This document shows, piece after piece, positions 27,319 through 46,901 of a stretch of DNA of 64,000 nucleotides. Origin of the DNA: Leptonemataceae bacterium (lineage in GTDB: Bacteria > Spirochaetota > Leptospiria > Leptospirales > Leptonemataceae); NCBI GenBank assembly GCA_965207725.1, contig OZ242290.1, positions 861,025 through 925,024 on the forward strand. Direction: 5' to 3'. The position numbers and the translations under genes are program-made. The notes under the pieces are model-generated. The model had not been told where the DNA came from, ran no database searches, and saw only the letters and a program-made list of their open reading frames with translations. Numbering within the stretch: the stretch's first letter is position 1; each line of letters opens with the position of its first letter.

Positions 27319-27342
27319 TTTATTGGGTAGAGAAGAGAAAAA

Positions 27343-27984
27343 ATGAAAAATAGAGAGTCGTTTCCATATAATTTTTTGGGATTTATTGTAATTTTCTTTA
27401 TGATTTCTGCTTGTAATCTTAATAAAAAACCGATTGAAAAAGACACCTATGTCCTTATGGTCAACAATCCAAGAAAAGGTTCTCAAGTATCGCCACCGAG
27501 ATTTACAGGTAACCTAAAAATTCGAGAAATTGTCATTGTGTCGGCGTATAATCAGCGGAGCTTAACCTATCGCCTAGGGGATAATAGATTTAAAACGGAC
27601 TTTTATAACGAGTATCTCATCGATCCAGAAGATATGTTTGCCGATCAATTGAGGCAATGGTTTACCGACAGTGGGCTTTTTAGTAAAGTCGAATTTTATC
27701 GGGGAAGCACTGGGACATGTTATTACTTGGATGCTCTGATCGAAGCTTTTTATTATGATTTGCGAGAGAAAAACAATCAGCGAGCAGTTTTGAAAATAGC
27801 GATAACACTTGATCAGCCGTCAAAAAAGCCCTTGTATTACCGAAATTTTGACAAACAGATGATATTAAAGAATGATAAGATCAGTAGTTTAATTATTGCT
27901 CAGAATCAATTATTAGGGGAAATTTTAGTGAGCATGGAAAAAGATCTCAGAGAACTTTCGGTTCAACCGTGTATTTCACTATAG
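27343..27984 (+). CDS. ABC-transport auxiliary lipoprotein (DUF330, PqiC/YmbA-like)
   Basis: Lipobox FMISAC. Size and sequence pattern match the DUF330 lipoproteins that follow MCE genes. Confidence 0.55.
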   Translation: MKNRESFPYNFLGFIVIFFMISACNLNKKPIEKDTYVLMVNNPRKGSQVSPPRFTGNLKIREIVIVSAYNQRSLTYRLGDNRFKTDFYNEYLIDPEDMFADQLRQWFTDSGLFSKVEFYRGSTGTCYYLDALIEAFYYDLREKNNQRAVLKIAITLDQPSKKPLYYRNFDKQMILKNDKISSLIIAQNQLLGEILVSMEKDLRELSVQPCISL

Positions 27985-31628: not shown

Positions 31629-32378
31629 TTATTTTTTGTAATTATCGAGGAACCCTTTGATCAGGTCAATCGGTAGCGGGAAGATCGTAGTGGAATTTTT
31701 ATCCCCAGCAATCTCCGAAAGAGTTTGTAGGTAGCGAAGCTGGATGGTCACTGGGTTTTTTGCAATCATATCTGCTGCTTGTGCTAATTTTTCAGACGCT
31801 TGATATTCTCCTTCACTGGCAATAATTTTTGCTCGTCGTTCACGTTCCGCTTCGGCTTGTCGTGCCATCGCCCTTTGCATGTTTTCTGGTAAATCCACAT
31901 GTTTTACTTCTACCATTGAGACCTTAATTCCCCAAGAATCAGTGGATTCATCTATGACACTACGAAGTTTTCGATTTATTTCTTCTCTATTTGAAAGAAT
32001 ATCATCTAAATCTGATTCACCAATGATTGATCGTAATGAAGTTTGCGCTAATTGTGAGGTTGCGTACAAATAATCTTGTACTTCAATGATTGCCTTTTCG
32101 GGGCTCATGACGCGAAAGTAAATTACCGCATTGACCTTCATGGTCACATTGTCTTTGGTAATTACATCTTGCGGAGGCACATCCATTGCAATGACTTGAG
32201 TGGTTACTTTGATCATCTTATCTATAACAGGAATCAGAAGGATGAGCCCTGGTCCTTTCACTTTTAAGAAACGACCCAGCCGAAATACTACCGCACGTTC
32301 GTACTCGTTGAGAATACGGATTGCAAGAGCAAGAAAAGTTATCGTTAATACTATGAGTGCTAAAAGTTGCATATTCAA
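31629..32378 (-). CDS. SPFH/band-7 (stomatin-like) membrane protein
   Basis: N-terminal TM helix followed by an SPFH domain (VVFRLGRF...[13 protein letters not shown]...[30 protein letters not shown]). Confidence 0.85.
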
Positions 32379-34491: not shown

Positions 34492-34521
34492 TTGACATGA
34501 TTTATCTTTTGTACTTATACT
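34492..34521 (+). promoter_or_regulatory. sigma70-like promoter candidate for the 34.5-42.3 kb operon
   Basis: TTGACA (34492-34497), an 18-bp spacer, then TATACT (34516-34521). It is followed by GGAGG (34543-34547) 5 nt before the ATG at 34553. Confidence 0.4.
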
Positions 34522-34552
34522 GGCGATATTGTATAAAGGAATGGAGGTATGA

Positions 34553-36556
34553 ATGAGTTTTTCACAATTTCCTAAGAGTCCGAATAAGATTGATCCGATA
34601 ATCCCGAGCGCGGTAGCCTCGCGGACATCCCTAGTTTGGGAAGGTCGGAGTAAGCCAGCGGAATCGAAGAAAATAATTGATGAGGCGGCAAAATATATTT
34701 CAGAATATACGAAAATTAAATTGCCACCGGAGATCACAAAAGATCTGGACGTTATGGCCAGTCTTGAAGATAAAATATACAACTATGTGAATCAAGCTTA
34801 CGTGAACATGTTCAATCGTTATGCGATAACGGTTGAAGATGAGATGGTAAAGAAGGTTCGTGATTTTGTAGATAAAGAAGAGATAAAGAATTTAGCCCGC
34901 TATACGCCACGGGAAATCACTGAGATCCTTGATAAGGTTGGTGGTGCCGATAAGTTCAATACTGGTGAAGTTGAAAAATCAGTGGTGAATATGTATGGTC
35001 ACTTGCAAGGTCATATCCAAAGAGGTGTGTATGATCTAGAGGTAGAGACAAATGCGATTTTACGGCAGAAACAAGACGTTGGTTCGTTTGTCCGCGGGGA
35101 AAACGCCTATGCCATCGTAAAGTGTGCTTTTAAGGACAGTCGCGCTAAGCCAAAGACCGTTACTGATATTAAATTATCTGTAAATATTTTGGATTCTGAG
35201 TTGATCAGTCCTATTTTTCACTATCAGGTAACAGTTGAGCATTTGCTCAAAGAGCAATTGGCGTCACATATAACCTATCTGATTGATCGTGAAATTGAAA
35301 AATTAAAGGATGAAATTGTCGATGCTGGGAAACAAGAGATGTCTTCTGGTGAAGTTATGTTTGCGAAGATTAAGTCTACTGAGAGTTTTACGGATGACAA
35401 TGTCAGCGATCCAAACTCTAGGAGATATACAATTCTATCGAAAAAATTTATAGATAGAATTGAAGGATTGCGGGCAGAAATTGATCAGGATGAATATGAT
35501 CCACTTAATTTGCGAGAGCAAATTAAATCGATTATCGATTCTGAGAATATTCGTAATCGTGGCTTCAATACTGCAGTAAACACAATTACTTCGATATTGG
35601 ATAGCTCAAAATTGGGATATCAGTACTGCGATAACAAAAAGAATGCCCGTGAGGCAATCATCCGCGAATATGAGGATCAGAACGAAGATCATCTACCCGA
35701 TGAACGCTATCAGCTGAGATTGGTGTACTACGATCAAAATCAAATCCGCGACTTAAAACGGATATATGATCAAAGGATAAATGCATTTTTCCGCGAGGTT
35801 CAAGTGGTTTGGGACGTTGTTAATGCGCTTCATGAAAGAAGTAAGAGACGAGCGTTTGGCTTTCTCCCCAAGAAAATCACTGATTTTGAGGATCTTTGTA
35901 TGTCCATAATGCCAGCTCAATGGCGAAAAGAACGCAAGGAGCTAGCAGAAGATGAAGACGAATTGCAATGGCGCACACTTCAGTTCCGCGATCATTCGAG
36001 TACTTTTGTTGAGAAAAACAATCGCACTTATTCCACTGAGATTAAGAATAATGGTGATATGTTGAATCAAATGCGCAAGGATTTACAAAAGCTCTTTGGC
36101 TACCAAAATCCCATGGAAAGGGTATTGGTAGAGGAGAGATTAATGTTTCTTGAACACGAATTCAATGATTTCACCTACGAAGTCAATCCACATCATCTGC
36201 AGCCAGGAGTATTGCTGGACGTTGATATGACGACTACGAAACGTAAACAGTATATGATGCGGGCAATGGCAAATGTATTAAATGAATTCCTGTTTGGAAT
36301 TTCACAAGGTTTTGCTGATGCTGCCTTTGCTACATTCTCTCGAAGAAGATCTACGACGAGAGATACTGCCGACTATACTTTTACTGAAGTTCAAGAAGGA
36401 GAATCTGTGAGTAGCACTGCCTACGAGCAAAGAATGTCCTCTTTTTCCTCTGGTCAGAGTCAGACTATGGGTGGATCACAAAGTTCCGCAAATGTAACCC
36501 CAAGGTCGCTTAAGGATTCTAATCCAGATAAGGGTTCGGGTTTGCAAGAACTGTAA
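34553..36556 (+). CDS. hypothetical soluble protein, 667 aa (first gene of uncharacterised operon)
   Basis: Long ORF with a strong SD. There are no Walker or other catalytic motifs. The N-terminus is Pro-rich and the C-terminal tail (about 80 aa) is Ser/Thr/Gln-rich and low-complexity (RRRSTTRDTADYTFTEVQEGESVSSTAYEQRMSSFSSGQSQTMGGSQSS). Confidence 0.6.
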   Translation: MSFSQFPKSPNKIDPIIPSAVASRTSLVWEGRSKPAESKKIIDEAAKYISEYTKIKLPPEITKDLDVMASLEDKIYNYVNQAYVNMFNRYAITVEDEMVKKVRDFVDKEEIKNLARYTPREITEILDKVGGADKFNTGEVEKSVVNMYGHLQGHIQRGVYDLEVETNAILRQKQDVGSFVRGENAYAIVKCAFKDSRAKPKTVTDIKLSVNILDSELISPIFHYQVTVEHLLKEQLASHITYLIDREIEKLKDEIVDAGKQEMSSGEVMFAKIKSTESFTDDNVSDPNSRRYTILSKKFIDRIEGLRAEIDQDEYDPLNLREQIKSIIDSENIRNRGFNTAVNTITSILDSSKLGYQYCDNKKNAREAIIREYEDQNEDHLPDERYQLRLVYYDQNQIRDLKRIYDQRINAFFREVQVVWDVVNALHERSKRRAFGFLPKKITDFEDLCMSIMPAQWRKERKELAEDEDELQWRTLQFRDHSSTFVEKNNRTYSTEIKNNGDMLNQMRKDLQKLFGYQNPMERVLVEERLMFLEHEFNDFTYEVNPHHLQPGVLLDVDMTTTKRKQYMMRAMANVLNEFLFGISQGFADAAFATFSRRRSTTRDTADYTFTEVQEGESVSSTAYEQRMSSFSSGQSQTMGGSQSSANVTPRSLKDSNPDKGSGLQEL

Positions 36557-36748
36557 TTGATTGAGATACTACTTCAGTAGCGATTGATGCAATATCAGTT
36601 GCTATTGAAGTGAGGCAGATGTAATATCTATCAAGATTGATGGACTGAAGCACGGAACTGAGAAAAAAATATATAAAAAAGGAAAAAATAATCAAACTGA
36701 GTATAATAATAGATGTGTAGATTATTTCATGAATGAGGGTAAGATCAA

Positions 36749-37729
36749 ATGATAGATAATGTAAAAGTTGATTTTAGTAACATTGGGCGAAAAAAATCTT
36801 ACAATACTGTCTTACGTCATATGTTGAACGTGACAGACATGGTCAACAGAGTAGGGAAGGGTGAAAATCTCGCAGAAATATTAAATGCTGCGCTTGAGGA
36901 AAAGAAGATAATGGAAGATCAGCTTCTTCCGTTGGTTTCATTGATTTTGGTGCAGAAGTACAACTATCAATATCGAGCCGAAAATTTGAGTATGGAATTC
37001 AATGACTTTGAATCTCTAGTGGCTATGTGTCAAAAATGCGAGTCGTTAGATTTTGTGATCACCTATTTTCATCCGAATTCTAAAGTATGCGTTTTGAATC
37101 CTAAGAAAATTGGCCTTTGGCAGGAGCATGTGCAGAGTCTGCACAAAAACGAGCTGTTGGTGGTCTATGTCCAGAATAAAAGGAAAGATAAGGAATTGAA
37201 CCAACGAGCACTAAAGATTTTATTTGATTTTTTTAATGGCCAAGATATCAAGGAACTTGATACGGATTTCACATCGCATGTAACAGATGCTGCTACTTGG
37301 GAAGCCCCTAACAAGAGCGAAGGAGACCCTGCAAGCGTTGCTGTTCTTACGGAAAAAAAAGTATCCACCCAAACTGCTCCATCAACAGCAAAGCAAAAGA
37401 AAAATTTGACTCCACAATATTCAGTTCAGGTAACCAATGAACTATTTCATAATGGAAACGTGGAGGCTTGGAAAAATATTATTGCATCGTATCAGGATCG
37501 ATATCCAAGTTGCCGAGTCTTAGTCTACTACGAAGGTGAACTAATTCAAGATTTAAATGCCCTCTTTAAGTGGGGTAAAGTGAAACATGGTGGAGTCCTC
37601 TTGTTTCAGGTTTTGGGAGAAGATATTAGTGACGTGAGACGTTTACAAAAATATTTGTTTGAAGGTGCTTCCTCACGTTATGAAGCATTTCTTAAGCAAG
37701 ACATTTATCGCCATTTAAATCTCTTTTAA
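36749..37729 (+). CDS. hypothetical protein, 326 aa
   Basis: Same-strand ORF with no recognisable motifs; part of the cluster. Confidence 0.5.
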   Translation: MIDNVKVDFSNIGRKKSYNTVLRHMLNVTDMVNRVGKGENLAEILNAALEEKKIMEDQLLPLVSLILVQKYNYQYRAENLSMEFNDFESLVAMCQKCESLDFVITYFHPNSKVCVLNPKKIGLWQEHVQSLHKNELLVVYVQNKRKDKELNQRALKILFDFFNGQDIKELDTDFTSHVTDAATWEAPNKSEGDPASVAVLTEKKVSTQTAPSTAKQKKNLTPQYSVQVTNELFHNGNVEAWKNIIASYQDRYPSCRVLVYYEGELIQDLNALFKWGKVKHGGVLLFQVLGEDISDVRRLQKYLFEGASSRYEAFLKQDIYRHLNLF

Positions 37730-37762
37730 TAAATGACAATTTGTTGGGAACGGAACTGAAAA

Positions 37763-38485
37763 ATGTTTTCCAAGTACTTTTCGCAGCAACAAACAAGTAT
37801 TCTTAAATCAAAAAAGAATACTCCGGTCAAAAAGCCAAATCAGGCTAGCAAGACAAAAAATCTCAAAGCATACCGATCTTTTTTTTCGTTTTTGAAGGAT
37901 CACTTGCCTTATGAGTATGCGTTAGCGACTGGCAAGGTCCGCAATCATCAAAAAATATTGAGTAAAAACTGTGATCTACTTGTATATAAGAAATGGTGTG
38001 ATGCCTATTTAGAATTGAGCGGGGGCTATGTTATCGTCGATGATATATACGCTTTTATGACTGTGGAGATGGCCGCATCTCCTGCGAGCTTACGTGCTCA
38101 TGTAAACTTGACCAGTGCCATGAAAAATCTGAAGTCTAGTGAAATTAACGCAGAAAAAAAGCAAGAGGAATTAATTCCTATTTATTCGGTTTATTTTTCT
38201 TACTCATCTTTACAACAATTACCAGATGTCAAAGAGGCACTATTGTCCTTATGTGAAGAAAAAAAAATTCCAATAAATGAAAGGCCGGATATTCTCTGTA
38301 TTTTAGATCAGGGAATTTTGGTTCGAGACTGGGAGAAAGGAGGGGATTACCGGGGGCTACTTACGGAAAATGAAACTCTTATGTGGTTTTATATTTTATT
38401 TTTGGAGCACATTGATGTAAAAGGTGGTTTGAGTATTAATTTGCGGAATTTTGTCAAAAGCAACAGGGTCTATGATGAATGCTGA
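37763..38485 (+). CDS. hypothetical protein, 240 aa
   Basis: Same-strand ORF 33 nt after the previous gene, with a Lys-rich N-terminus and no recognisable motifs. Confidence 0.5.
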   Translation: MFSKYFSQQQTSILKSKKNTPVKKPNQASKTKNLKAYRSFFSFLKDHLPYEYALATGKVRNHQKILSKNCDLLVYKKWCDAYLELSGGYVIVDDIYAFMTVEMAASPASLRAHVNLTSAMKNLKSSEINAEKKQEELIPIYSVYFSYSSLQQLPDVKEALLSLCEEKKIPINERPDILCILDQGILVRDWEKGGDYRGLLTENETLMWFYILFLEHIDVKGGLSINLRNFVKSNRVYDEC

Positions 38486-38604
38486 TTGGACGAATTCGGG
38501 GGAAAATCAAATTACAAGGAGAGTCTTTGAAATATTGTTGGACAAAGGTATAGTCTGAGCGATAATAAGAGATAAATACTGAAAGGAAGCAAATTAATTT
38601 TCTT

Positions 38605-39753
38605 ATGAATATTATCAAAAACAAAATGAGCAAACCAAGAGGACTTGCGAGAACTTTGTCTAGAGTTACCATGAAATCTTTTGTTTTGCTTTTGTTTCTT
38701 GTAGCTTCTTGCCAGAGTGATTCTCCTCGAGATTTTATTTTATCGATTGATACCTCTGGTTCTATGTTTCAGGGCAATTCACCGGATGAGAAGATGATCA
38801 ACCGAGTAAAAGATGCGATAGAGCCTTTGGTTGATCTTACAAAAAAGGATGACCGAGTTTACTTAATATCTTTCGATGATGGTGTGCAAACTCATCTTGA
38901 TTTTGAAATTCAAGACGAAAGCGATAAGCAGATGATCATTGAAACGGTCCGATCCTTTGATGCCAAGGGAGCGTATACTGATATGGGGAGCATGGTTCTT
39001 TCTATACGCGAATATTTAATCGAGAGACATGAGGAGGATCGAGACACATTTGTGATTATTCTCTCAGATGGGATTGATGATCCTAATCCGCAACGGGAAT
39101 CAAGTTTTCAAATTCAGCTAGAAGATTTGGCGATAGATGGGAATAAACCGATTGGATCCTTTGAGGACACTTACATTTATTATTTGAGTGTGGGACTCTT
39201 GGTAGACGAAGGATTGATCAAGGATTTAGAAGGTATTGCCCCAGATCAAGTTCGGACCATTGAGGATGGAGATCCTTCCTCAAGTATTGCATCTTTGATT
39301 AATGATTTGGAGAGCAAAAGAAGGATACAGTATATCGAAAATTTAGTAAAGGAATACGATATGGAAATTGGAATTCTCATCATGCTCATCATTTTATTAC
39401 TTTTTATTCGGATACAGATTACTCGAAACAAGGTAAAGGGCAAATTCTTTTATTATAATCGGAAATTGGGTAGCTATACTGAGAAGTCATTTGTCTTAGA
39501 TCGATTAAAGAAGCATCGAGTGGTCATTGGCTCCAAGATAGGCGTAGATTTGCTCATCCGTGGATTGAAACTCAAAAAGCCGTTGGTACTGAGAGCAGTG
39601 AACCTAGAAGATGGATTCGGTTTAATCGCAAGTAAAAAGAGTAGAGGTCTCATATCGTATAGTCAGCAAAAGGAAGAGGGAAAAATTTCGATTGATGATA
39701 GATTCTCGATTGGAGATTTTGATTTTAGATATGCTAAGAAAAAAAGAAATTAG
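38605..39753 (+). CDS. lipoprotein with periplasmic von Willebrand factor A domain, one TM helix and a cytoplasmic FHA-like domain
   Basis: Lipobox LVASC; the likely true start is MKSFVLLL at 38671. VWA MIDAS motif ILSIDTSGSM...ISFDDG...SDGIDD. TM helix IGILIMLIILLLFIRI. The C-terminal FHA-like pattern is HRVVIGSKIGVDLLIRG...GLISYS...FSIGDFDFRY. Confidence 0.6.
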   Translation: MNIIKNKMSKPRGLARTLSRVTMKSFVLLLFLVASCQSDSPRDFILSIDTSGSMFQGNSPDEKMINRVKDAIEPLVDLTKKDDRVYLISFDDGVQTHLDFEIQDESDKQMIIETVRSFDAKGAYTDMGSMVLSIREYLIERHEEDRDTFVIILSDGIDDPNPQRESSFQIQLEDLAIDGNKPIGSFEDTYIYYLSVGLLVDEGLIKDLEGIAPDQVRTIEDGDPSSSIASLINDLESKRRIQYIENLVKEYDMEIGILIMLIILLLFIRIQITRNKVKGKFFYYNRKLGSYTEKSFVLDRLKKHRVVIGSKIGVDLLIRGLKLKKPLVLRAVNLEDGFGLIASKKSRGLISYSQQKEEGKISIDDRFSIGDFDFRYAKKKRN

Positions 39754-42277
39754 AGAACAATTAGATCACGAATTACGTGGTTTGCGAGCCAATGAGCGCG
39801 TATTCTGTCTAGATAAAAACCTTTTTCTCGTCTATACTGGTACCAATAGTTCTGATTTACAGCCATTTATTCGCGTGGGTAGCGGTGAAAAAATACATCG
39901 CAATTCAGCGGCATGGATTGGGCATGTAATCCTGTCCGAACAGGATCCAGTCAATCTCGGGCGAGAAATCGAATGGATTGAACATGCGATTGAGAAAGGC
40001 TTTGCGTCAATCAAATATGTAGGCAGTAAAAAACGTCTTGATCAAATTTATAATATCACAGGAATGCCTCAGCTTGAAGATAAGGGGCGCAATGTTCCGA
40101 TCCAAATTTTGCCGTATGGAAAAATTAACGGTGAGAAAGACAAGATACAAGTATATGCGATTCAAGAAAGAGAGAATTTTTCAATACAAATAAATAATAG
40201 AAGAGTCTTTGACTATAATGATCGAGTCAAAAATAAATCTTGGTCAGTTGAAACCGAGTACAAATTGTTTGCAGAAGCATTGCAGAAGATGCCAAGAACC
40301 AAGGCCAGTGACCCACAAGATATAAGTTTTGTCTGGGTTAAAGGAAGAAAATTTGATAAATTGTTGCCGACACTCTATTGGAATTGTCTTGGCAAGGGAT
40401 TTATTTTCGAGCCATCATCTGGCTTTCATCAAGACCTATTTGAATGTCACATTGATCCCACGAATGTAGTCGGATATTCTGCGAGCGATGGATTGACATC
40501 AGGGTTAAATAACGGCCTTTTATATGCTCATCAAGAGCATCAAGAAATATGTGTGAATATCGCCGATGAAAATCAGTTTGTTGGTCTTAAAAAAATATAT
40601 AATTCAGCTAACCTACGGCAAATGACCGCTGGTGTGGCGCTTCCATTTGCCAAAAGCATGTTTTTGAGCAAGTCGAGACGAGGAAACTATAGTGCATTGA
40701 GTTGGCGTTTTTCTGCTCAGAGTGATTACTTTGTGAACGTACTTTTCCCTAGCATGCGAAAATCTGCGAAGAAGCAAATAGAGAATATTCGTGCCCCGTA
40801 TGATGTCGAAATTCAGAAAATTGATACCCATGATGATTTTAAGCTGTCAACCGCAAATCTGCAACTTCAGTATCCCGGAGCAATCGACCAAGAGACCTTT
40901 GAGCTAAAAAAAATTAGGGGAAAAAACTTCCCACTGATTCCGAATACCGAGTATATCTTCCATCAAGCAGAGAATCTTAATGATATTATGGATGTGGCAC
41001 TGCGTTGTTTCCGTGACACAGAGTATTTAAGTAGCCTAACAAAGATCTATCAGTTTCATCAGGTCGCGGAACTCAAGTCTGAGACCGATTATTTGCGTCA
41101 ATCGCTTGAGGAGCTATTGTATATCCACAGATCAATCGAGAATAGTCAGACAACTGAGTTTGTCAATTTGGCTAGTTTTGTTCAAGTGTTAAAATATACG
41201 GTAACTTTTGGTAACTATACCAAAGAGCAGATGTCTCGCTATAATAAATTAGAAAAGACAATATCTTTGACCAAGTATCGCAACAGCGATTTGCTCGGGT
41301 TACAAAGCAAAGAGGTGACTATTCAGATCTTATCTTTTGGCAATAGGGAAAAAAAATCCATATTATTCATCGATAATCTGCAAAAAGATAAACTCCCTTG
41401 GCACTTGCCAAGAGAAATACTGACATCTCGGCAGCAAGAAAAACAATACGGTAAAAAATTGATTTTATGGCAAAAAATTATCGGCAGAAAGAAAGAATAC
41501 GAAGAATACTTACCGATTCTCCAAGTGCTTGAGAAAATGGTCAATCAACAACAATTTTTCAAGGAACAATGGATTGCTTTTCGAAAGTTAGTAGAACGTT
41601 TGGGAACGAGCGTGGTTGGAGAAAGTATTTTTGGTGAGCGGCCCTACTTAAAACAGAGCAAAAAATCTTGGTCAGATTTGGTATCGAACGGTTTTAATCT
41701 AGGTTCTTTGAAAGACGTTCTGATAGACTTAAAAGAGAAAATAATGAACCCTAAGGGCTTGATCATTTTTGCCTTGCTAGCATTGAGTTCTTTTCTTCTG
41801 GTGATAATGGTCAGCAGATACTCACCATCAACTCCAGAATTCATTGGGTTGGTTGACGTTGGTAATTTTCAGGAAAATGAGAATATTCCCGGAGCAGAAG
41901 AGATTGAGATCACTGATGCTGAAATCTTTGAATATGCGAATATTTTGGCTACGCAAAATAATTTTCAATCGTTAGAAGCATCGATAGACAACAATGAAAA
42001 TGCGAAAAGAAATCCGAATTTGATCTTTCCAAGTGACTTATTGAGGTTACCGGATCAACGATTGACACGAGTAAAATCTGGCAGTTATATCTGGGAAATT
42101 GCCCGTAACCAGTATCAACAGGATTTTGCTCGCTTATTATTGCTCGAAAAAGAGATCAGTGAAAATGGCAGCAAAAAAGATATCGAGAAATATATTGCTT
42201 GGGTCAAACGATTAGCTGTTACTAAAAAAATGAAAGAAGTTTTGCTACGATTACAGCCAACTATTGAATCCCTATAG
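39692..42277 (+). CDS. hypothetical bitopic membrane protein, 861 aa: large cytoplasmic N-domain, single TM, periplasmic C-terminal LysM-like domain
   Basis: TM helix GLIIFALLALSSFLLVIMVS at about residue 690. The C-terminal segment FEYANILATQNNFQSLEASIDNNENAKRNPNLIFPSDLLRLP fits the LysM pattern (...L...N.l.nPnlI.pGd.L.lP). The gene overlaps the upstream gene by about 60 nt, suggesting translational coupling. Confidence 0.55.
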   Translation: MMIDSRLEILILDMLRKKEIREQLDHELRGLRANERVFCLDKNLFLVYTGTNSSDLQPFIRVGSGEKIHRNSAAWIGHVILSEQDPVNLGREIEWIEHAIEKGFASIKYVGSKKRLDQIYNITGMPQLEDKGRNVPIQILPYGKINGEKDKIQVYAIQERENFSIQINNRRVFDYNDRVKNKSWSVETEYKLFAEALQKMPRTKASDPQDISFVWVKGRKFDKLLPTLYWNCLGKGFIFEPSSGFHQDLFECHIDPTNVVGYSASDGLTSGLNNGLLYAHQEHQEICVNIADENQFVGLKKIYNSANLRQMTAGVALPFAKSMFLSKSRRGNYSALSWRFSAQSDYFVNVLFPSMRKSAKKQIENIRAPYDVEIQKIDTHDDFKLSTANLQLQYPGAIDQETFELKKIRGKNFPLIPNTEYIFHQAENLNDIMDVALRCFRDTEYLSSLTKIYQFHQVAELKSETDYLRQSLEELLYIHRSIENSQTTEFVNLASFVQVLKYTVTFGNYTKEQMSRYNKLEKTISLTKYRNSDLLGLQSKEVTIQILSFGNREKKSILFIDNLQKDKLPWHLPREILTSRQQEKQYGKKLILWQKIIGRKKEYEEYLPILQVLEKMVNQQQFFKEQWIAFRKLVERLGTSVVGESIFGERPYLKQSKKSWSDLVSNGFNLGSLKDVLIDLKEKIMNPKGLIIFALLALSSFLLVIMVSRYSPSTPEFIGLVDVGNFQENENIPGAEEIEITDAEIFEYANILATQNNFQSLEASIDNNENAKRNPNLIFPSDLLRLPDQRLTRVKSGSYIWEIARNQYQQDFARLLLLEKEISENGSKKDIEKYIAWVKRLAVTKKMKEVLLRLQPTIESL

Positions 42278-42405: not shown

Positions 42406-42816
42406 TTATTTGTCCAGATTTTTCTTGTGTATTTCTTTGTCAGACTTGGTTGCAAGGAGGGTAAGAATATCACCGATGAATTTATGATGCTCATTCAAGA
42501 TCATTTCTAGCTGTTTTTTTTTATCCACTTCAATAAGAGTTTTTACTAGTTTTCCTAGATTTTTGCGGATACTGGCATCTAAATAAATTGGATCATCATC
42601 AATTTTATTATCGGCCTCCGAGGTTTGCTGAATACTACCCAGTAATTGTTCAATAGATCGCTTGCGAGCACCTTTACCAAGATTACTGATTTGTTGACTC
42701 AATGATTCTGGATTTTGCGAATCTTTGTTGCTCAAATTTTCTTTGGGCATTTTTGGCCTCTGTTCCCTCATCTCGGTGATCAATGATTTCAAGCTATCTG
42801 CGTTCAGATTGTCCAT
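42406..42816 (-). CDS. hypothetical small charged protein (136 aa)
   Basis: ORF only, no motifs. It lies antisense between the cluster and the GGDEF gene. Confidence 0.35.
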   Translation of the reverse strand: MDNLNADSLKSLITEMREQRPKMPKENLSNKDSQNPESLSQQISNLGKGARKRSIEQLLGSIQQTSEADNKIDDDPIYLDASIRKNLGKLVKTLIEVDKKKQLEMILNEHHKFIGDILTLLATKSDKEIHKKNLDK

Positions 42817-42972: not shown

Positions 42973-44073
42973 ATGAGTGCAGAAAGTACAGTATCACTGT
43001 TGAAAAAAGAGAATCAGAGATTAAAAGCACAACATAAGAGAATGCTCAAGATCATAAATCTGAGTGGGTCATTGACGAGCACTCATCACATTGACGTTAT
43101 TTTAGATGCTGTCTTGGAAAAAACCCAAGAGATCTGTGAAGCGGAGGCAAGTAGTCTTTGGATGGTCGACGAAGATAGGGGGGATATCTATCTGTATATG
43201 ACGGGGGAACAAAATGAATTCGCAAAAGTCTTGCAGACGACCCGTCTAAAAAAAGGACAGGGAATTTGTGGTTGGGTCGTGCAAAAAAATAAACCGGTCC
43301 TCGTTGCTGATTGCCAGTCCGATTCGCGATTTCAAGGAGAGATCGATAAAAAGACAAAATTCATTAGTCGAACAATGATTTGTGTCCCATTGGTTGTTAG
43401 AGAAAATGTGATTGGTGCCTTGCAAATACTCAACAAAAAAAAGAATAAGACATTTGATAAAACCGATCTAACGATTACGACGATTTTAGGTCATCAGGTA
43501 GCAATTGCCGTCCAAAATGCTCGTCTGAACCATTCGGTAACCGTCGATGCAGATACGAATCTTTATCGGCGAGCTTATTTTCGAGAAGTTTTAAATGCAG
43601 AATTTAATATAGCGAAAAAGAAGATGCAAAATCTTGCAGTCCTTATGTGTGACATTGATCATTTTAAAAAAGTCAATGATACGTACGGTCATCAATCGGG
43701 CGATATCGCTATCTTGCATTTGTCGAATATTTTGCACCAGACTCTTCATAAATTGGGGAGTCGAGATATTGCTGGTCGATACGGAGGTGAGGAGTTTTGT
43801 GCTTTACTGATTGGATATTCATTGGAGACAGTGAAGGATATTGCGGAAAATTTACGGATTCAAATTGAACAATCGCAAATCCCTTTGAATAATGGAAAAA
43901 CGATTCAGATTACTGCATCAATTGGCATTGCACATTTTCCTGTCCATCAAGAGTATTTGACTTCTGCTGATGATTTTATTGCCCTTGCCGATGAAGCCTT
44001 ATTCCTCTGCAAAAGTAAAGGGAGAAATTGTATTTCCTCTTTCAATGCGCAACAGACAAAAGTTCTTAAATAA
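42973..44073 (+). CDS. GAF-GGDEF diguanylate cyclase
   Basis: N-terminal GAF domain (about 170 aa), then a GGDEF domain with an intact active site RYGGEEF and the DxFK/VND motifs (DIDHFKKVNDTYGH). Confidence 0.85.
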   Translation: MSAESTVSLLKKENQRLKAQHKRMLKIINLSGSLTSTHHIDVILDAVLEKTQEICEAEASSLWMVDEDRGDIYLYMTGEQNEFAKVLQTTRLKKGQGICGWVVQKNKPVLVADCQSDSRFQGEIDKKTKFISRTMICVPLVVRENVIGALQILNKKKNKTFDKTDLTITTILGHQVAIAVQNARLNHSVTVDADTNLYRRAYFREVLNAEFNIAKKKMQNLAVLMCDIDHFKKVNDTYGHQSGDIAILHLSNILHQTLHKLGSRDIAGRYGGEEFCALLIGYSLETVKDIAENLRIQIEQSQIPLNNGKTIQITASIGIAHFPVHQEYLTSADDFIALADEALFLCKSKGRNCISSFNAQQTKVLK

Positions 44074-44270: not shown

Positions 44271-46901
44271 ATGATTGTTCATGAATTTAGCCAAGAGGGA
44301 TGCACTCAAGACAAAGATATCTGGCGGCGGTGTGGTAGTCGTGGCAGAAGTGTATTTGAATTAGCTTCTTCGAAACTTCCTATTGTACCGGGATTTATTA
44401 TTGATGCGAGGACATGTGCAAAATTGAGTGAATATGATGATTTGGATTTTATATGGGCAAATGTTGATAGAATTGGCAAAAGATTGGGCCGACGCTTTGG
44501 TGATGTCTCCAACCCATTGCTCTTAAAACTAGTCTGTAGTTCAAACTTGCTGATGTCTGCTCATCCATCGGTGTTTAATGTGGGGCTCTCGCCAACCACT
44601 TTGCCAGGATTAACTAAATTAATGGATGCTGATGAAGATAAGTCTTGGTTTGAGTACTGTTATCTTTTGCAAACGAGCGGAGAAAAGGTATATAATATTG
44701 ATCCTCAAGAATTTGAACAAATTTCGAATCAGTATACCGGAGTACTCGAAAGTAGGATGGAGATCGTTGCAAAAATGCGAAAGCTGGTAGATGAAGAAAA
44801 ATTGGCAGATGATCCGTATAAACAATTGGAGACATTAATCAAGAATTTAGCAAAGAATTATTATGATCCTGATCTTGATATGGATGATAATGTCGCAATT
44901 TTGGTGCAAGGAATGGTCTTCGCTAATATGGATAGTCAGTCGATCGTAGGACATTACTGTAATCGCGATATCGTTACTGGTAAAAAAAAGCCAAGTGGTG
45001 AATTTGCGAGAAATCAATATACGCTGTTCAAGGGAACCGGTGAAAATATTGAAAATTTAGAAGTTAAATACCTAGATACTTTGCAAAAAATTGGAGATTT
45101 GGTTGAGAGAAAGTTCAAAGACATCTATGAGATCAAATTTATCGTCGAATCTGGAATATTATGGCTGCTTAGTCAAACTCGACAAGAAAAAAAATCAACC
45201 CAAGCTCATCTTCGCATCTTGTTAGATCTTTACCGTGATGGTGCAATAACTGATAAATGGTTGATCCAAGAAGTCAACCCAAGTTACTTAGCGAGTTTAT
45301 TGTATCCCATTATTGATCCGCTCACTTTAGGTAATTTAGCAAAAACGGAAGGAGGTCTTTCTGGATCACCGGGTGCTGCCGTTGGCAGAGTATTCTTTGA
45401 TGCAGAGCGATTAATGGATGTTTATCGTGAATCGATACAAAAAGGTGAAGATACTCGATTAATTTTATGTGTTAAATCAAGTTTTGCCGAGGATGTAAAA
45501 GCAATTGAAATCGGGCAAGGGGTTATTGCAGTTGAGGGTGGATATTCTTCTCATGCTCCTGTGGTGGCACGCTCAATGGGTAAAGTCGCGATGGTTAATC
45601 CAGAAATAAAAATTGATGGCAAATCCTTTGAACTCAATGGGCAAATAGTAAAAGAAGGTGATTATATTACTTTAGATGTACCAATCTACAAAAAACCCAC
45701 GATATATTTTGGTGAAGCAGGGCTCATCAGTCCTGACATTGAGAAAAATGGCCTCTTAGAGCTAACTGAAATTTCCAAGAAATTTATAAAAGATGATTTT
45801 GTTGTGCGAGCTAATGCAGACTTACCTCGTGATGCAAAACTTTCCAAAAAAATGGGAGCTTTTGGGATTGGGCTGTGCCGGACTGAGCATATGTTTTTTT
45901 CCGAAGATCGAATTCAATTTTTTCGCCAAATGATCTTGTCCGAGAATACAGAACAAAGGATTGACTTTTTAAAAAAACTAGAAGCGATACAGATTCAAGA
46001 TTTTTACGAACTCTTTAAAATATCCCATCCAGATCGGGTGACAATCCGTCTCTTGGATGCGCCATTACATGAATTTCTGCCCCGCAATGATCAAGTTCTT
46101 AAAGAGTACCTAGATCATTTAAAAAAACAGGATTTAGAAGTAGATGCAGAGCAGATTAAACAGAGAATTGAGCACCTGTCGGAATTTAATCCGATGTTAG
46201 GACATCGGGGTTGTCGAGTTGGTGTAACCTATCCTGAGATTTATGAAATGCAAGTACGAGCGATCTTTATTGCGGCGTGTCGCTTGAAGGCAGAAAAAAT
46301 GAATGTTGTCCCCGAAATTTTGGTTCCGATCATTATGAATAGTCATGAGATGAGAATGATCCGCAATGGTAAAAAAATCACTGGCAAAGTTGTCAAAGGG
46401 ATTACTCAAATCAGCGAGGAAATATTTGAAAAGGAAAATCAATCGGTCGAATATCTTGTCGGCTCAATGGTCGAACTTCCTGCTGCGGCGCTCGCCTCTG
46501 ATGAGATCGCAAAATATGCCGATTTCATTAGTTATGGAACCAATGATCTAACTCAAACAACTTTTGGCCTTTCTCGAGATGATGCAAATTCCTTTTTTCC
46601 AGATTATACTGAATATGATTTATTATCAGATAATCCTTTTAGAGTTTTAGGGTCACAAGTGAAAGAATTGATTGATATTAGTGTAATGCGAGCACGCTTG
46701 ACTAGACCGGATATTAAAATTGGTCTTTGTGGCGAGCATGGAGCCGATCCAGAGAATATACTATTCTGCTATAATATAGGTTTGAATTATGTGTCATGTT
46801 CAGCATACAGTGTGCCAATTGCTTTGTTAACAATTTCACAATTAAATATCAAATTGGAAGAAGCAAAGGCTGGAGAGCAACAGCGACCATTGGTAGCTTG
46901 A
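44271..46901 (+). CDS. ppdK: pyruvate, phosphate dikinase
   Basis: 876 aa. Phospho-histidine region GGYSSHAPVVARSMGKVAMV, a PEP-utilising TIM-barrel region (GLCRTEHMFF, LCGEHGADPENI), and an N-terminal ATP-grasp domain. Confidence 0.9.
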   Translation: MIVHEFSQEGCTQDKDIWRRCGSRGRSVFELASSKLPIVPGFIIDARTCAKLSEYDDLDFIWANVDRIGKRLGRRFGDVSNPLLLKLVCSSNLLMSAHPSVFNVGLSPTTLPGLTKLMDADEDKSWFEYCYLLQTSGEKVYNIDPQEFEQISNQYTGVLESRMEIVAKMRKLVDEEKLADDPYKQLETLIKNLAKNYYDPDLDMDDNVAILVQGMVFANMDSQSIVGHYCNRDIVTGKKKPSGEFARNQYTLFKGTGENIENLEVKYLDTLQKIGDLVERKFKDIYEIKFIVESGILWLLSQTRQEKKSTQAHLRILLDLYRDGAITDKWLIQEVNPSYLASLLYPIIDPLTLGNLAKTEGGLSGSPGAAVGRVFFDAERLMDVYRESIQKGEDTRLILCVKSSFAEDVKAIEIGQGVIAVEGGYSSHAPVVARSMGKVAMVNPEIKIDGKSFELNGQIVKEGDYITLDVPIYKKPTIYFGEAGLISPDIEKNGLLELTEISKKFIKDDFVVRANADLPRDAKLSKKMGAFGIGLCRTEHMFFSEDRIQFFRQMILSENTEQRIDFLKKLEAIQIQDFYELFKISHPDRVTIRLLDAPLHEFLPRNDQVLKEYLDHLKKQDLEVDAEQIKQRIEHLSEFNPMLGHRGCRVGVTYPEIYEMQVRAIFIAACRLKAEKMNVVPEILVPIIMNSHEMRMIRNGKKITGKVVKGITQISEEIFEKENQSVEYLVGSMVELPAAALASDEIAKYADFISYGTNDLTQTTFGLSRDDANSFFPDYTEYDLLSDNPFRVLGSQVKELIDISVMRARLTRPDIKIGLCGEHGADPENILFCYNIGLNYVSCSAYSVPIALLTISQLNIKLEEAKAGEQQRPLVA

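What the first reader, a model, noticed from the sequence alone, without database searches (positions are those of the whole stretch)
34492..42277. Uncharacterised five-gene operon encoding a putative envelope-spanning VWA / FHA / LysM module
Five co-directional ORFs (667, 326, 240, 382 and 861 aa) sit behind a TTGACA-18-TATACT promoter candidate and a GGAGG RBS. They are divergent from uvrC and lie upstream of a GAF-GGDEF gene. None of the five has a recognisable enzymatic motif. Two have clear domain logic. One is a lipoprotein with a periplasmic VWA (MIDAS DxSGS) domain, a single TM and a cytoplasmic FHA-like phosphothreonine-binding domain. The other is an 861-aa protein with a large cytoplasmic domain, one TM and a periplasmic LysM-like peptidoglycan-binding tail. 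The first gene ends in a long Ser/Thr-rich tail, which is a plausible FHA ligand. Taken together this looks like a trans-envelope signalling or scaffolding assembly (peptidoglycan, periplasmic adhesion domain, cytoplasmic phospho-dependent recruitment) that does not match any named system I know.
Basis: partly seen in the sequence, partly recalled or inferred. Interest (0 to 1): 0.75.

Follow-up and report, generated by a model that had tools for sequence, protein, structure and literature searches.

The report
Spirochaete cfpA cytoskeletal filament gene cluster
The region is the locus for CfpA, the known cytoplasmic-filament (cytoskeleton) protein of spirochaetes, followed by four conserved but unstudied partner genes, two of which span the inner membrane and are candidates for the unidentified parts that tie the filament ribbon to the cell envelope.

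Summary
The five co-directional ORFs exist as described, but the first one is not anonymous. It is CfpA, the spirochaete cytoplasmic filament protein (NCBIfam NF040882, 836 bits against a cutoff of 500).

- **Gene 2** belongs to the TP_0747 family. It follows cfpA in 66 of 70 loci.
- **Gene 3** is a NucC-like nuclease-fold protein that lacks the catalytic lysine.
The FHA fold is confirmed by a pLDDT 92 model whose top 50 PDB hits are all FHA domains. The phosphothreonine-binding residues are missing.
- **Gene 5** has a cytoplasmic metallo-beta-lactamase-like region without the HxHxDH motif, then a TM, then a circularly permuted LysM-like tail.

All five genes keep this order in 27 species-level genomes. 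In other spirochaetes the order is rearranged (C-D-cfpA-B, VWA<->cfpA-B, E'-cfpA-B), yet the genes stay next to cfpA. That argues for a functional link.

A strong stem-loop follows cfpA, so a single five-gene transcript is doubtful.

Best reading: the four genes encode accessory and envelope-anchoring factors of the CfpA ribbon. This is inferred, not shown. The locus is a known system with an undescribed accessory module.

The parts
34492..34521 (+). sigma-70-like promoter candidate TTGACA-18-TATACT upstream of cfpA
   Evidence: 11 of 12 matches, the best in the scanned 8.9 kb. The total number of promoter-like sites (30) is not above the shuffled expectation (27.2 +/- 4.4). Function was not tested.
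34543..34547 (+). GGAGG ribosome-binding site, 5 nt before the cfpA ATG
   Evidence: sequence read directly.
34553..36556 (+). Gene A: cfpA, cytoplasmic filament protein (667 aa). Core is about residues 6-611. The Ser/Thr/Gly-rich tail ends in the motif ...NVTPRS...GSGLQEL.
   Evidence: NCBIfam NF040882 cfpA equivalog, E 1.5e-251, 836.5 bits (cutoff 500), model positions 2-604 of 605. 97 genome loci encode relatives. Neighbouring homologues carry Pfam PF27473 CfpA_C. Tail composition. Conserved C-terminal motif. No solved structure found by sequence.
36570..36612 (+). Perfect 20-bp stem-loop directly after the cfpA stop codon; no U-tract. Likely attenuator or mRNA-stabilising element.
   Evidence: intergenic fold -39.2 kcal/mol, z -3.3, 0 of 200 shuffles as stable; a strong stem-loop, mostly followed by a U-run, lies after cfpA in almost all of 33 related loci examined.
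36749..37729 (+). Gene B: TP_0747-family protein (326 aa). N-terminal domain, Pro/Ala/Lys-rich linker, and a very conserved C-terminal ~105 aa (NELFHNGNVEAWK ... LFKWGKVK).
   Evidence: Present in 66 of 70 loci that have at least 1.5 kb downstream of cfpA, immediately downstream in all but two (B-ppdK-cfpA in L068 and L070). Alignment with 33 invariant columns across Leptospirales, Treponema and unclassified MAGs. Homologues carry PF27497 TP_0747_N. At least 2604 clusters; every name given is 'hypothetical protein'. No PDB or local Pfam hit.
37763..38485 (+). Gene C: NucC-like PD-(D/E)xK-fold protein (240 aa). Keeps D71 and E102 but lacks the Lys of NucC's IDx30EAK motif.
   Evidence: Family profile against PDB: Serratia NucC 8.9e-9, Vibrio NucC 9.2e-6, E. 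coli NucC 0.0042. PADLOC PD_DExK 2.5e-10, and NucC effector 3.7e-7 over residues 3-223. 22 of 23 members hit Pfam DUF6602. NucC motif taken from bioRxiv 10.1101/694703. Column inspection of alignment A5.
38605..39753 (+). Gene D: bitopic lipoprotein-type protein (382 aa). Signal/lipobox (Cys36); periplasmic VWA with complete MIDAS (about residues 45-220); TM 255-273 (39367-39423); cytoplasmic FHA-fold domain about residues 280-382 (39442-39750).
   Evidence: Pfam VWA_2 1.3e-11 and VWA 1.9e-10. Invariant D49/S51/S53/T125/D155 and near-invariant C36. TM. C-terminal domain model pLDDT 92.4, pTM 0.84. Foldseek PDB top 50 are all FHA domains (GarA, Ki67, OdhI, MDC1, PscD, YscD, EssC). 7 of 29 members hit Yop-YscD_cpl weakly. 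pThr-binding residues are not conserved.
39692..42277 (+). Gene E (861 aa from TTG; more likely starts at ATG 39695 or ATG 39731, overlapping the end of gene D). Cytoplasmic metallo-beta-lactamase-like region (about residues 37-566) without HxHxDH; long helices 580-636; TM 687-710 (41750-41821); periplasmic circularly permuted LysM-like unit (about residues 738-812, 41903-42127).
42973..44073 (+). GAF-GGDEF diguanylate cyclase gene (GGEEF intact). Syntenic with the module in the window's clade; membership in the module is uncertain.
   Evidence: Pfam GGDEF 3.4e-38, GAF 3.6e-19. Present between E and ppdK in 22 of 27 type-I loci. Absent from the other locus types.
44271..46901 (+). Pyruvate phosphate dikinase gene (ppdK). 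It is the conserved downstream neighbour of cfpA-B across spirochaetes. In this clade genes C-D-E-GGDEF lie between B and ppdK.
   Evidence: Pfam PEP-utilizers_C 6.9e-63. The order cfpA-B-ppdK is seen in Treponema-type and other loci.

Best explanation
This is the cfpA locus of a Leptospirales (Leptonemataceae-like) spirochaete. The parts below are marked as shown or inferred.

- **Gene A (shown).** It encodes CfpA, the subunit of the cytoplasmic filament ribbon that in treponemes runs under the inner membrane parallel to the periplasmic flagella.
- **Gene B (inferred).** The TP_0747-family protein is a near-universal partner of CfpA. It probably acts in ribbon assembly or bridging.
- **Genes C, D and E (inferred).** They are lineage-variable accessory factors of the same structure.
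- **D (architecture shown, role inferred).** It exposes a metal-dependent VWA binding domain in the periplasm. It presents a degenerate FHA domain in the cytoplasm. That domain most likely works as a phospho-independent protein-protein scaffold, as in YscD, PscD or EssC.
- **E (architecture shown, role inferred).** Its translation is probably coupled to that of D. It provides a large non-catalytic metallo-beta-lactamase-like platform plus coiled coil in the cytoplasm. In about half of the family it also has a TM and a permuted LysM-like tail that could hold peptidoglycan.
- **D and E together (inferred).** They would fix the ribbon to the envelope.
- **C (inferred).** This NucC-like protein without the catalytic lysine would be a DNA- or nucleotide-binding adaptor. 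It may link the nucleoid to the ribbon.
- **Transcription (inferred).** cfpA has its own strong stem-loop, so B-E are probably expressed at lower levels by read-through or from internal promoters.
For: **Identity of CfpA**
- NF040882 at 836 bits against a cutoff of 500.

**Linkage**
- 27 species-level genomes keep A-B-C-D-E in this order.
- B occurs in 66 of 70 cfpA loci, immediately downstream of cfpA in all but two.
- In a second clade the order is C-D-cfpA-B-ppdK. This holds for L032 and for 6 of 6 sampled D-family proteins.
- In 30 Treponema-type loci a VWA gene lies directly upstream of cfpA and divergent from it.
- In L031 a distant E-like gene with TM and LysM-like tail lies directly upstream of cfpA.
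- Adjacency that survives four different rearrangements argues for functional coupling.

**Architecture**
- D: lipobox, complete MIDAS, TM and FHA fold.
- E: MBL-like fold, TM and permuted LysM.
- D and E overlap by 23-62 nt.

**Literature**
- The filaments lie just under the cytoplasmic membrane, parallel to the flagella (PMC13398306).
- Tomography reported unidentified 'bridging and anchoring components' (title of Izard 2004, cited).
- The cfpA mutant shows chromosome condensation and filamentation (PMC3398590).
Against: - There is no experimental or interaction evidence for any of B-E. The case rests on gene neighbourhood and domain logic.
- About 10 of 27 E homologues have no TM or tail, and in four more the tail is a separate ORF.
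- Distant E-like proteins occur away from cfpA.
- Treponema-type loci lack C and E. Their long VWA proteins have an unrelated cytoplasmic domain (hhalign probability 0.2%).
- The T. pallidum VWA protein TP0750 has been assigned a host-interaction role with TP0751.
- NucC-like, MBL-like and GGDEF genes together could point to a nucleotide-signalling function instead.
- Filaments were described as made of a single protein (PMC3398590).
Confidence: 0.55

Rival explanations
1. This is a phosphothreonine-dependent trans-envelope signalling assembly. A Ser/Thr kinase phosphorylates the S/T-rich CfpA tail (or another ligand), and the FHA domain of D reads that mark.
For: The FHA fold is real. The CfpA tail is 33% Ser/Thr. 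It contains a conserved 'DVTPKS'/'NVTPRS' Thr-Pro site in Leptonemataceae. In the wider D family the FHA 'GR' Arg is present in 20 of 33 members and an 'SR' in about 14 of 33, so some relatives may still bind pThr.
Against: The window protein has GS instead of GR and no SxxH. Among the 29 cfpA-linked Leptonemataceae proteins Arg is present in 4. No canonical FHA Pfam hit was found; the only hits are weak ones to the pThr-independent YscD type. No kinase or PP2C gene is syntenic with the locus in any of the ~90 loci examined. The low-complexity part of the tail is not conserved.
Confidence: 0.12
2. Genes C-D-E, with the GAF-GGDEF gene, form an independent nucleotide-second-messenger or defence-like module: a NucC-like effector or sensor, an MBL-like phosphodiesterase relative, a VWA/FHA sensor and a diguanylate cyclase. 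It sits beside cfpA only by descent.
For: C is homologous to NucC and to CRISPR-associated PD-DExK proteins. The fold of E matches cyclic-nucleotide and nucleic-acid phosphodiesterases such as Apyc1, PhnP and RNase Z. GGDEF is syntenic in 22 of 27 loci.
Against: C and D stay adjacent to cfpA in two different gene orders. All 6 of 6 sampled D-family members are cfpA-linked. The module is inherited vertically at 22-46% identity across 27 species, not patchily like defence islands. C lacks the NucC Lys and E lacks HxHxDH. No cyclase of the CD-NTase or Cas10 type is present. D and E have no PADLOC hits.
Confidence: 0.15
3. D and E act on the periplasmic side only, for example in peptidoglycan or periplasmic-flagella organisation or in cell division. 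They do not contact the CfpA ribbon. The shared location reflects co-regulation of envelope and morphogenesis genes.
For: Both have periplasmic binding domains: VWA-MIDAS and LysM-like. TP0750 of T. pallidum is described as periplasmic and as binding TP0751. The type-II locus L081 is flanked by flagellar genes.
Against: The conserved cores of D and E include substantial cytoplasmic domains. The ~650-aa cytoplasmic part of E is the only part present in all homologues. Flagellar neighbours are not conserved across loci.
Confidence: 0.1

Closest known systems
CfpA cytoplasmic filament ribbon of Treponema (T. pallidum TP0748, T. denticola, T. phagedenis)
   Same: Gene A is a full-length CfpA equivalog. 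It is 51-56% identical to Treponema-type CfpA. The downstream neighbours B and ppdK are the same.
   Different: The organism is a Leptospirales-type spirochaete. Three extra genes (C, D, E) and a GGDEF gene lie between B and ppdK. The tail linker is Ser/Gly-rich rather than Lys/Ala/Pro-rich. The papers I could search attribute no accessory genes to the ribbon.
TP_0747 family (Pfam PF27497 TP_0747_N)
   Same: Homologues of gene B carry this Pfam domain and occupy the same position after cfpA.
   Different: The family has no assigned function. PF27497 is not in the local Pfam copy, so the window protein itself was tied to the family through homology and not by a direct scan.
TP0750, the VWA-domain protein of T. 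pallidum (partner of TP0751/pallilysin)
   Same: It is a VWA protein with a signal sequence, encoded close to cfpA. In 30 Treponema-type loci a D-like VWA gene lies divergent from cfpA. TP0750 is described as a periplasmic VWA protein.
   Different: TP0750 is 224 aa and has no TM or FHA domain. Its adjacency to cfpA in T. pallidum rests on locus-tag numbering and my memory, not on a locus examined here. Its reported role is host-matrix interaction.
NucC (CBASS / type III CRISPR cA3-activated endonuclease)
   Same: Gene C shows homology over nearly its full length, and the Asp of 'ID' is conserved.
   Different: The Lys of IDx30EAK is absent. No CD-NTase or Cas10 gene is nearby. C is inherited vertically inside a cytoskeletal locus.
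FHA-fold scaffold domains of secretion systems (YscD/PscD, EssC) and classical pThr-binding FHA domains (GarA, OdhI, Ki67)
   Same: The fold matches (TM 0.5-0.65, probability 1.00). As in YscD, the domain is the cytoplasmic part of a bitopic inner-membrane protein.
   Different: Here the domain is C-terminal and follows a periplasmic VWA. The canonical GR/SxxH residues are lost in the window protein.
ELAC2 / RNase Z and other metallo-beta-lactamase-fold phosphodiesterases
   Different: There is no HxHxDH motif and only 8-14% identity. E is fused to a coiled coil, a TM and a LysM-like tail.
LysM peptidoglycan-binding domain
   Same: Both halves of the LysM signature are present (…NPDLVFPGDxLxLP and …GEYIWEIAR). 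After in-silico re-ordering they give full-model Pfam matches.
   Different: The order of the halves is swapped (alpha2-beta2-beta1-alpha1), that is, a circular permutation. The window's own copy is too divergent to score. Binding to peptidoglycan is untested.

Membership tests
CfpA (NCBIfam NF040882 equivalog) | Whole-protein score above the curated cutoff, with near full-length model coverage | tested here: met
   836.5 bits against a cutoff of 500; model positions 2-604 of 605.
CfpA (NCBIfam NF040882 equivalog) | Forms cytoplasmic filament ribbons under the inner membrane | not testable with these tools
   Needs electron microscopy or cryo-ET of the organism. From memory, Leptonema illini was described as having cytoplasmic tubules.
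TP_0747 family (PF27497) | Homology to proteins that carry PF27497, and a position next to cfpA (normally immediately downstream) | tested here: met
   A family HMM that includes the window protein scores 5e-117 to 2e-116 on PF27497-annotated genes. All 120 listed homologues carry PF27497. A direct scan with PF27497 was not possible because it is absent from the local Pfam copy.
VWA domain with MIDAS | Pfam VWA above cutoff, and DxSxS...T...D metal-site residues | tested here: met
   VWA_2 45.5 bits (cutoff 27) and VWA 41.7 bits (cutoff 23.8). D49, S51, S53, T125 and D155 are invariant.
FHA domain | 11-stranded beta-sandwich FHA fold | tested here: met
   Model pLDDT 92.4. All top 50 Foldseek PDB hits are FHA domains.
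FHA domain | Profile-level sequence match to PF00498 or a clan member | tested here: inconclusive
   No PF00498 hit. 7 of 29 family members hit Yop-YscD_cpl weakly (best E 0.0017). The window protein itself does not hit. The family profile finds nothing in PDB sequences.
FHA domain | Conserved pThr-binding residues (Gly-Arg, Ser-x-x-His, Asn) | tested here: not met
   The window has Gly-Ser and no SxxH. Arg is present in 4 of 29 close relatives and 20 of 33 wider relatives.
LysM | Pfam PF01476 match at the gathering cutoff in native order | tested here: not met
   The window tail has no hit. 6 of 13 relatives hit only weakly (best E 0.0023).
LysM | beta-alpha-alpha-beta signature present, allowing for circular permutation | tested here: met
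   The SafA LysM halves align in swapped order. 7 of 10 re-ordered constructs hit LysM; 4 reach the 20.9-bit cutoff and 3 of those cover model positions 3-43 of 43 in one stretch. The model shows alpha-beta-beta-alpha. The window's own construct does not score.
NucC / PD-(D/E)xK nuclease | Sequence homology to NucC | tested here: met
   Profile against PDB 8.9e-9. PADLOC NucC 3.7e-7 over residues 3-223.
NucC / PD-(D/E)xK nuclease | Active-site motif IDx30EAK (Asp, Glu, Lys) | tested here: not met
   D71 is invariant and E/D102 is present in 22 of 23 members. No Lys at the motif position in any of the 23 members.
NucC / PD-(D/E)xK nuclease | Encoded with a CD-NTase or a type III CRISPR cyclase | tested here: not met
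   No such gene in the window flanks or in ~90 related loci.
Metallo-beta-lactamase superfamily | alpha-beta/beta-alpha sandwich fold | tested here: met
Metallo-beta-lactamase superfamily | HxHxDH metal-binding motif | tested here: not met
   Absent from 37 of 38 family members. Only H246 and H333 are conserved histidines.
Single operon | Co-transcription of all five genes | not testable with these tools
   Gaps are 192, 33 and 119 nt, and the last pair overlaps. The stem-loop after cfpA suggests at least attenuation. RNA-seq or RT-PCR is needed.

The most novel reading that the evidence does not exclude
The CfpA ribbon is not a one-protein filament. It is the cytoplasmic face of a conserved trans-envelope assembly.
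- TP_0747-family proteins bridge the filaments.
- A VWA-TM-FHA protein and an MBL-like-TM-permuted-LysM protein bolt the ribbon to periplasmic partners and to peptidoglycan.
- A catalytically disabled NucC-like trimer tethers the nucleoid to the ribbon, possibly under c-di-GMP control.

This would put names to the 'bridging and anchoring components' seen by tomography in 2004. It would also explain how the ribbon tracks the periplasmic flagella, and why cfpA mutants have condensed chromosomes and division defects.
Probability: 0.3. Interest if true: 0.8.

Novelty: new variant of a known kind. Interest (0 to 1): 0.55.

Why it matters
CfpA filaments have been known since the 1990s. They matter for division, chromosome organisation and virulence in treponemes. 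How the ribbon is assembled, bridged, anchored to the membrane and aligned with the periplasmic flagella is still unknown. The papers I could search name no accessory protein.

The comparative data here nominate specific testable candidates:
- one partner found at 66 of 70 cfpA loci (the TP_0747 family);
- a VWA protein linked to cfpA in all three major locus types, including treponemes;
- in free-living Leptospirales-type spirochaetes, a VWA-TM-FHA protein, an MBL-like/LysM membrane protein and a NucC-like protein.

The data also suggest that the T. pallidum VWA protein TP0750, studied as a host-interaction factor, may belong to a cytoskeleton-associated gene neighbourhood.

Two further points are of general interest. 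One is the re-use of a CBASS-type nuclease fold and an RNase Z-type fold as probable non-enzymatic parts. The other is the circularly permuted LysM.

Tried and rejected
- **Single-sequence database search with gene D** found only itself and a 95% relative. An alignment query was needed.
It worked with substrings of proteins from the protein search.
- **Profile of the D C-terminal domain against PDB sequences:** no hit. Only the structure model revealed the FHA fold.
- **Profiles of B and of the E core against PDB and Pfam:** nothing meaningful.
- **PADLOC on A, B, D, E and the 136-aa ORF:** no defence-family hits. This argues against a catalogued defence system.
- **Cytoplasmic tails of the long Treponema-type VWA proteins:** not related to the D FHA domain (hhalign probability 0.2%). 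D orthology in treponemes therefore rests on the VWA domain and on position only.
- **Exact-sequence contig look-up for the window's D protein** found nothing. Cluster look-ups gave no names. The organism is placed only by similarity, near Leptospiraceae/Leptonemataceae MAGs.
- **The afdb50 fold library** was unavailable.
- **Literature:** no paper held with TP0748/0749/0750 together or on TP0747. The Izard and You primary papers are not in the library.
- **Rejected idea, cfpA-to-E as one obligatory operon.** The stem-loop after cfpA and its terminator-like counterparts elsewhere speak against it.
- **Rejected idea, uvrC as part of the unit.** It is not syntenic.

Full report
**1. What is there**

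The window holds five co-directional ORFs:
- A: 34553-36556, 667 aa
- B: 36749-37729, 326 aa
- C: 37763-38485, 240 aa
- D: 38605-39753, 382 aa
- E: 39692-42277, 861 aa from a TTG

The promoter-like TTGACA-18-TATACT at 34492-34521 is the best match in the region (11 of 12). The overall count of such sites is at chance level. A GGAGG lies 5 nt before the first ATG.

Gaps between genes are 192, 33 and 119 nt. D and E overlap. ATG 39695 has a good AGGAAGAGGG upstream, and ATG 39731 (M14) aligns with the start of 36 of 38 homologues. Two details need correction (sections 2 and 4).

**2. Identity of the first gene**

Gene A is CfpA, the cytoplasmic filament protein of spirochaetes. It hits the NCBIfam equivalog NF040882 with E 1.5e-251 and 836.5 bits against a cutoff of 500, covering model positions 2-604 of 605. 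The local Pfam copy has no CfpA model, which explains why Pfam found nothing.

A scan of one genome per species found 97 loci encoding relatives:
- 63-75% identical in Leptospiraceae/Leptonemataceae MAGs
- 51-56% in Treponema and allies
- 47-50% in a few unclassified MAGs

No solved structure is related by sequence.

From the literature:
- The filaments lie just beneath the cytoplasmic membrane and run parallel to the periplasmic flagella (PMC13398306).
- The T. denticola cfpA mutant shows chromosome condensation and filamentation (PMC3398590).
- A 2004 tomography paper is titled as revealing 'novel bridging and anchoring components' (reference list).

I found no paper that names such components.

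**3. Is the gene set conserved?**

I searched the 80 fetched loci with the window proteins (tblastn) and with family HMMs. The loci fall into these types:

| Type | Gene order | Where seen |
|---|---|---|
| I | cfpA-B-C-D-E, usually then GAF-GGDEF (22 of 27) and ppdK | 27 loci |
| II | C-D-cfpA-B-ppdK | L032, plus all six D-family proteins looked up independently (P0017, P0098, P0077, P0093, P0123, P0114) |
| III | a VWA gene immediately upstream of and divergent from cfpA, then cfpA-B-ppdK | 30 Treponema-type loci |
| IV | E'-cfpA-B-ppdK, where E' is a distant E-like 941-aa gene with the family's N-terminal motif, a TM and the LysM-like tail | L031 |
| V | B-ppdK-cfpA | L068, L070 |

Gene B is present in 66 of 70 loci that have enough downstream sequence. 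The upstream uvrC-like gene is never syntenic.

Genes B, C, D and, less strictly, E therefore remain neighbours of cfpA through several independent rearrangements. This is the main argument that they work with it. In the type II and III loci the database annotates the neighbours with Pfam PF27473 (CfpA_C) and PF27497 (TP_0747_N). Gene B is thus the TP_0747 family. That fits TPANIC_0748 = cfpA and, from memory, the T. pallidum order ppdK(0746)-0747-cfpA(0748)-0749-0750(VWA).

**4. One operon?**

Directly after the cfpA stop codon lies a perfect 20-bp stem-loop (36570-36612). The intergenic fold is -39.2 kcal/mol with z -3.3, and it has no U-tract.

In 33 related loci a strong stem-loop sits at the same place, in most cases followed by a U-run typical of an intrinsic terminator. 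cfpA is therefore probably transcribed mostly on its own. B-E would be expressed by read-through or from their own promoters; weak candidates lie at 38527 and 38539. Co-transcription of all five genes cannot be decided here.

**5. Gene B**

B has three parts: an N-terminal ~170-aa domain, a Pro/Ala/Lys-rich linker of variable length, and a C-terminal ~105 aa of very high conservation. 33 columns are invariant across all clades, for example NELFHNGNVEAWK and LFKWGKVK.

At least 2604 sequence clusters exist. Every name given by a source is 'hypothetical protein', and the only Pfam domain is PF27497. B has no PDB, Pfam-local, NCBIfam or PADLOC match.

**6. Gene C**

A profile of 23 family members hits NucC structures: Serratia 8.9e-9, Vibrio 9.2e-6, E. 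coli 0.0042. PADLOC gives PD_DExK 2.5e-10 and the NucC effector 3.7e-7 over residues 3-223. 22 of 23 members hit DUF6602.

The active-site motif of NucC is IDx30EAK, with Asp73 and Glu104 binding Mg2+ (bioRxiv 10.1101/694703). In the C family:
- the Asp is invariant (D71);
- an acidic residue sits 31 residues later (E102 in the window, E/D in 22 of 23);
- no member has the Lys.

C is therefore a NucC-fold protein with an incomplete catalytic site. I take it as probably non-catalytic, but residual metal binding cannot be excluded.

**7. Gene D**

- VWA passes Pfam cutoffs.
- MIDAS residues D49/S51/S53/T125/D155 are invariant, and the Cys of a lipobox (LVASC) is nearly invariant.
- A TM at 255-273 is followed by a positively charged stretch and a ~105-aa domain.

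For that domain sequence methods are weak. There is no PF00498 hit. 7 of 29 relatives hit Yop-YscD_cpl (best E 0.0017). There is no PDB sequence hit.

An AlphaFold2 model built from 33 sequences is confident (pLDDT 92.4, pTM 0.84). All top 50 Foldseek hits in the PDB are FHA domains, including GarA, Ki67, kanadaptin, OdhI, MDC1, KIF13, PscD, YscD, EssC and DgcB (TM 0.5-0.65, probability 0.94-1.00, E from 1.6e-3).

The fold is FHA, but the phosphothreonine-binding signature is not kept. The window has Gly-Ser instead of Gly-Arg and no SxxH. Arg occurs in 4 of 29 type-I relatives and in 20 of 33 of the wider family. I therefore read it as a scaffold-type FHA, as in YscD or EssC, and not as a pThr reader.

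The long Treponema-type VWA proteins have a different cytoplasmic tail (hhalign probability 0.2%).

**8. Gene E**

E has no sequence-level family. An exhaustive phmmer search gave 38 full-length relatives at E <= 1e-30. It also gave about 100 distant 750-990-aa proteins that share only the N-terminal ~160 aa and the tail, plus stand-alone tail proteins. One distant member is not near cfpA.

The model is confident (pLDDT 89.2, pTM 0.76).
- Foldseek matches ELAC2, the long RNase Z with tandem metallo-beta-lactamase domains, over ~600-670 columns (E 5.9e-6). It also matches single-domain RNase Z, Apyc1 and PhnP-like enzymes.
- The HxHxDH motif is absent from 37 of 38 family members. Only two histidines are conserved. 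E is probably a pseudo-enzyme platform.

After long helices (580-636) and a disordered stretch comes a TM (687-710) and a ~150-aa periplasmic tail.

The tail carries both halves of the LysM signature, but in swapped order:
- SafA LysM residues 26-47 align to the upstream half and residues 3-16 to the downstream half.
- In native order only 6 of 13 relatives give weak LysM hits.
- When I moved the beta1-alpha1 half in front of the alpha2-beta2 half in silico, 7 of 10 constructs hit LysM. Four reached Pfam's 20.9-bit cutoff, and three of those covered model positions 3-43 of 43 in one stretch.
- The model shows helix-strand-strand-helix.

This is a circularly permuted LysM-like unit. The window's own copy is too divergent to score by itself.

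Only about half of the type-I E proteins have the TM and tail. In four genomes the tail is a separate downstream ORF, and in about ten it is absent.

**9. The CfpA tail**

The last 70 residues are 33% Ser/Thr. Across homologues the low-complexity stretch varies freely: Ser/Gly/Pro-rich in Leptospirales, Lys/Ala/Pro-rich in treponemes.

A short terminal motif is conserved:
- GSADVTPKSYEDKLKEMGLKEL in Leptonemataceae
- SSANVTPRS...GSGLQEL in the window
- KKGVVDS...GLTEI in treponemes

The CfpA-like proteins of unclassified MAGs (611-620 aa) lack the tail. Three of these five loci also lack gene B. The terminal motif looks like a docking peptide. Its partner is unknown.

**10. Mechanism**

Shown:
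- The filament subunit is identified.
- The partners are linked to cfpA across rearrangements.
- The topologies and folds are established. D and E are bitopic inner-membrane proteins of opposite orientation. Each has a periplasmic binding domain and a cytoplasmic protein-interaction-type domain. Their genes overlap.

Inferred:
- D and E anchor the ribbon to the envelope and peptidoglycan.
- B bridges or assembles filaments.
- C links DNA or a nucleotide signal to the ribbon.

Confidence levels:
- That the locus is the cfpA locus: about 0.97.
- That B-E act functionally with CfpA: about 0.75.
- The specific anchoring roles: about 0.4.

They are weighed in their own section of this report.

**11. 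Novelty**

CfpA and its locus are known. TP_0747 and TP0750 have names but no cytoskeletal role. In the literature I could search I found no description of the conserved association of cfpA with four other proteins:
- a TP_0747-family protein;
- a VWA(-TM-FHA) protein;
- a NucC-like protein;
- in this clade, an MBL-like/permuted-LysM protein.

I rate this a new variant of a known kind, of moderate to good interest. It turns an old open question, what anchors and bridges the ribbon, into a short list of testable genes.

Noticed in passing
window 36570-36612; loci L002-L076, just after cfpA: A perfect 20-bp stem-loop follows the cfpA stop codon. Almost every related locus has a strong stem-loop there, mostly with a U-tract. 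This suggests that cfpA is expressed separately from, or at higher levels than, its partner genes.
   Followed up: partly
window 36350-36556 (CfpA residues ~600-667); C-termini of CfpA in L001-L080: The CfpA tail is a freely varying low-complexity linker. It ends in a short conserved motif (…DVTPKSYEDKLKEMGLKEL / …GSGLQEL / …GLTEI). The tail is missing from the 611-620-aa CfpA-like proteins of unclassified MAGs (L068-L071, L078).
   Followed up: partly
window 42973-44073: A GAF-GGDEF diguanylate cyclase gene (GGEEF intact) lies between gene E and ppdK in 22 of 27 loci of this clade and in no other clade. Together with the NucC-like and MBL-like folds, this hints at a nucleotide-signal input.
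   Followed up: partly
window 44271-46901 and all cfpA loci: The pyruvate phosphate dikinase gene is the conserved neighbour after cfpA-B across Leptospirales, Treponema and unclassified MAGs. No reason for linking a glycolytic/gluconeogenic enzyme gene with a cytoskeletal gene is apparent.
   Followed up: no
window 42406-42816 (- strand): A 136-aa ORF on the opposite strand lies between gene E and the GGDEF gene. It has no Pfam or PADLOC hit. Related loci (L003, L017, L018, L023, L033, L066) show only weak partial similarity.
   Followed up: partly
L085 10001-12406; P0171-P0274: About 100 distant relatives of gene E (750-990 aa) share only the N-terminal ~160 aa and the TM plus permuted-LysM tail. 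The one examined is not near cfpA, so the wider family is not restricted to the filament locus.
   Followed up: partly
L069, L071, L078 (and L068, L070): CfpA-like genes (47-50% identity) occur in MAGs labelled 'bacterium', 'SAR324 cluster' or Spirochaetia UBA6919. Three of these loci lack gene B nearby, and two have the order B-ppdK-cfpA. CfpA may not be confined to classical spirochaetes, or the bins are mislabelled.
   Followed up: no
L072 and L073 (same Treponema MAG, Co191P3bin12): Two contigs of one MAG each carry a cfpA copy, one with gene B and ppdK and one without. This is either a gene duplication or a mixed bin.
   Followed up: no
window 29262-31526, 31629-32378, 26500-27984: Upstream neighbours are a multi-TM class III adenylate/guanylate cyclase, an SPFH/Band 7 protein, and MlaD-like plus ABC-auxiliary lipoprotein genes. 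None is syntenic with cfpA elsewhere.
   Followed up: partly
window 62001-64000: G+C drops to 0.32 at the end of the window, against about 0.40 elsewhere.
   Followed up: no
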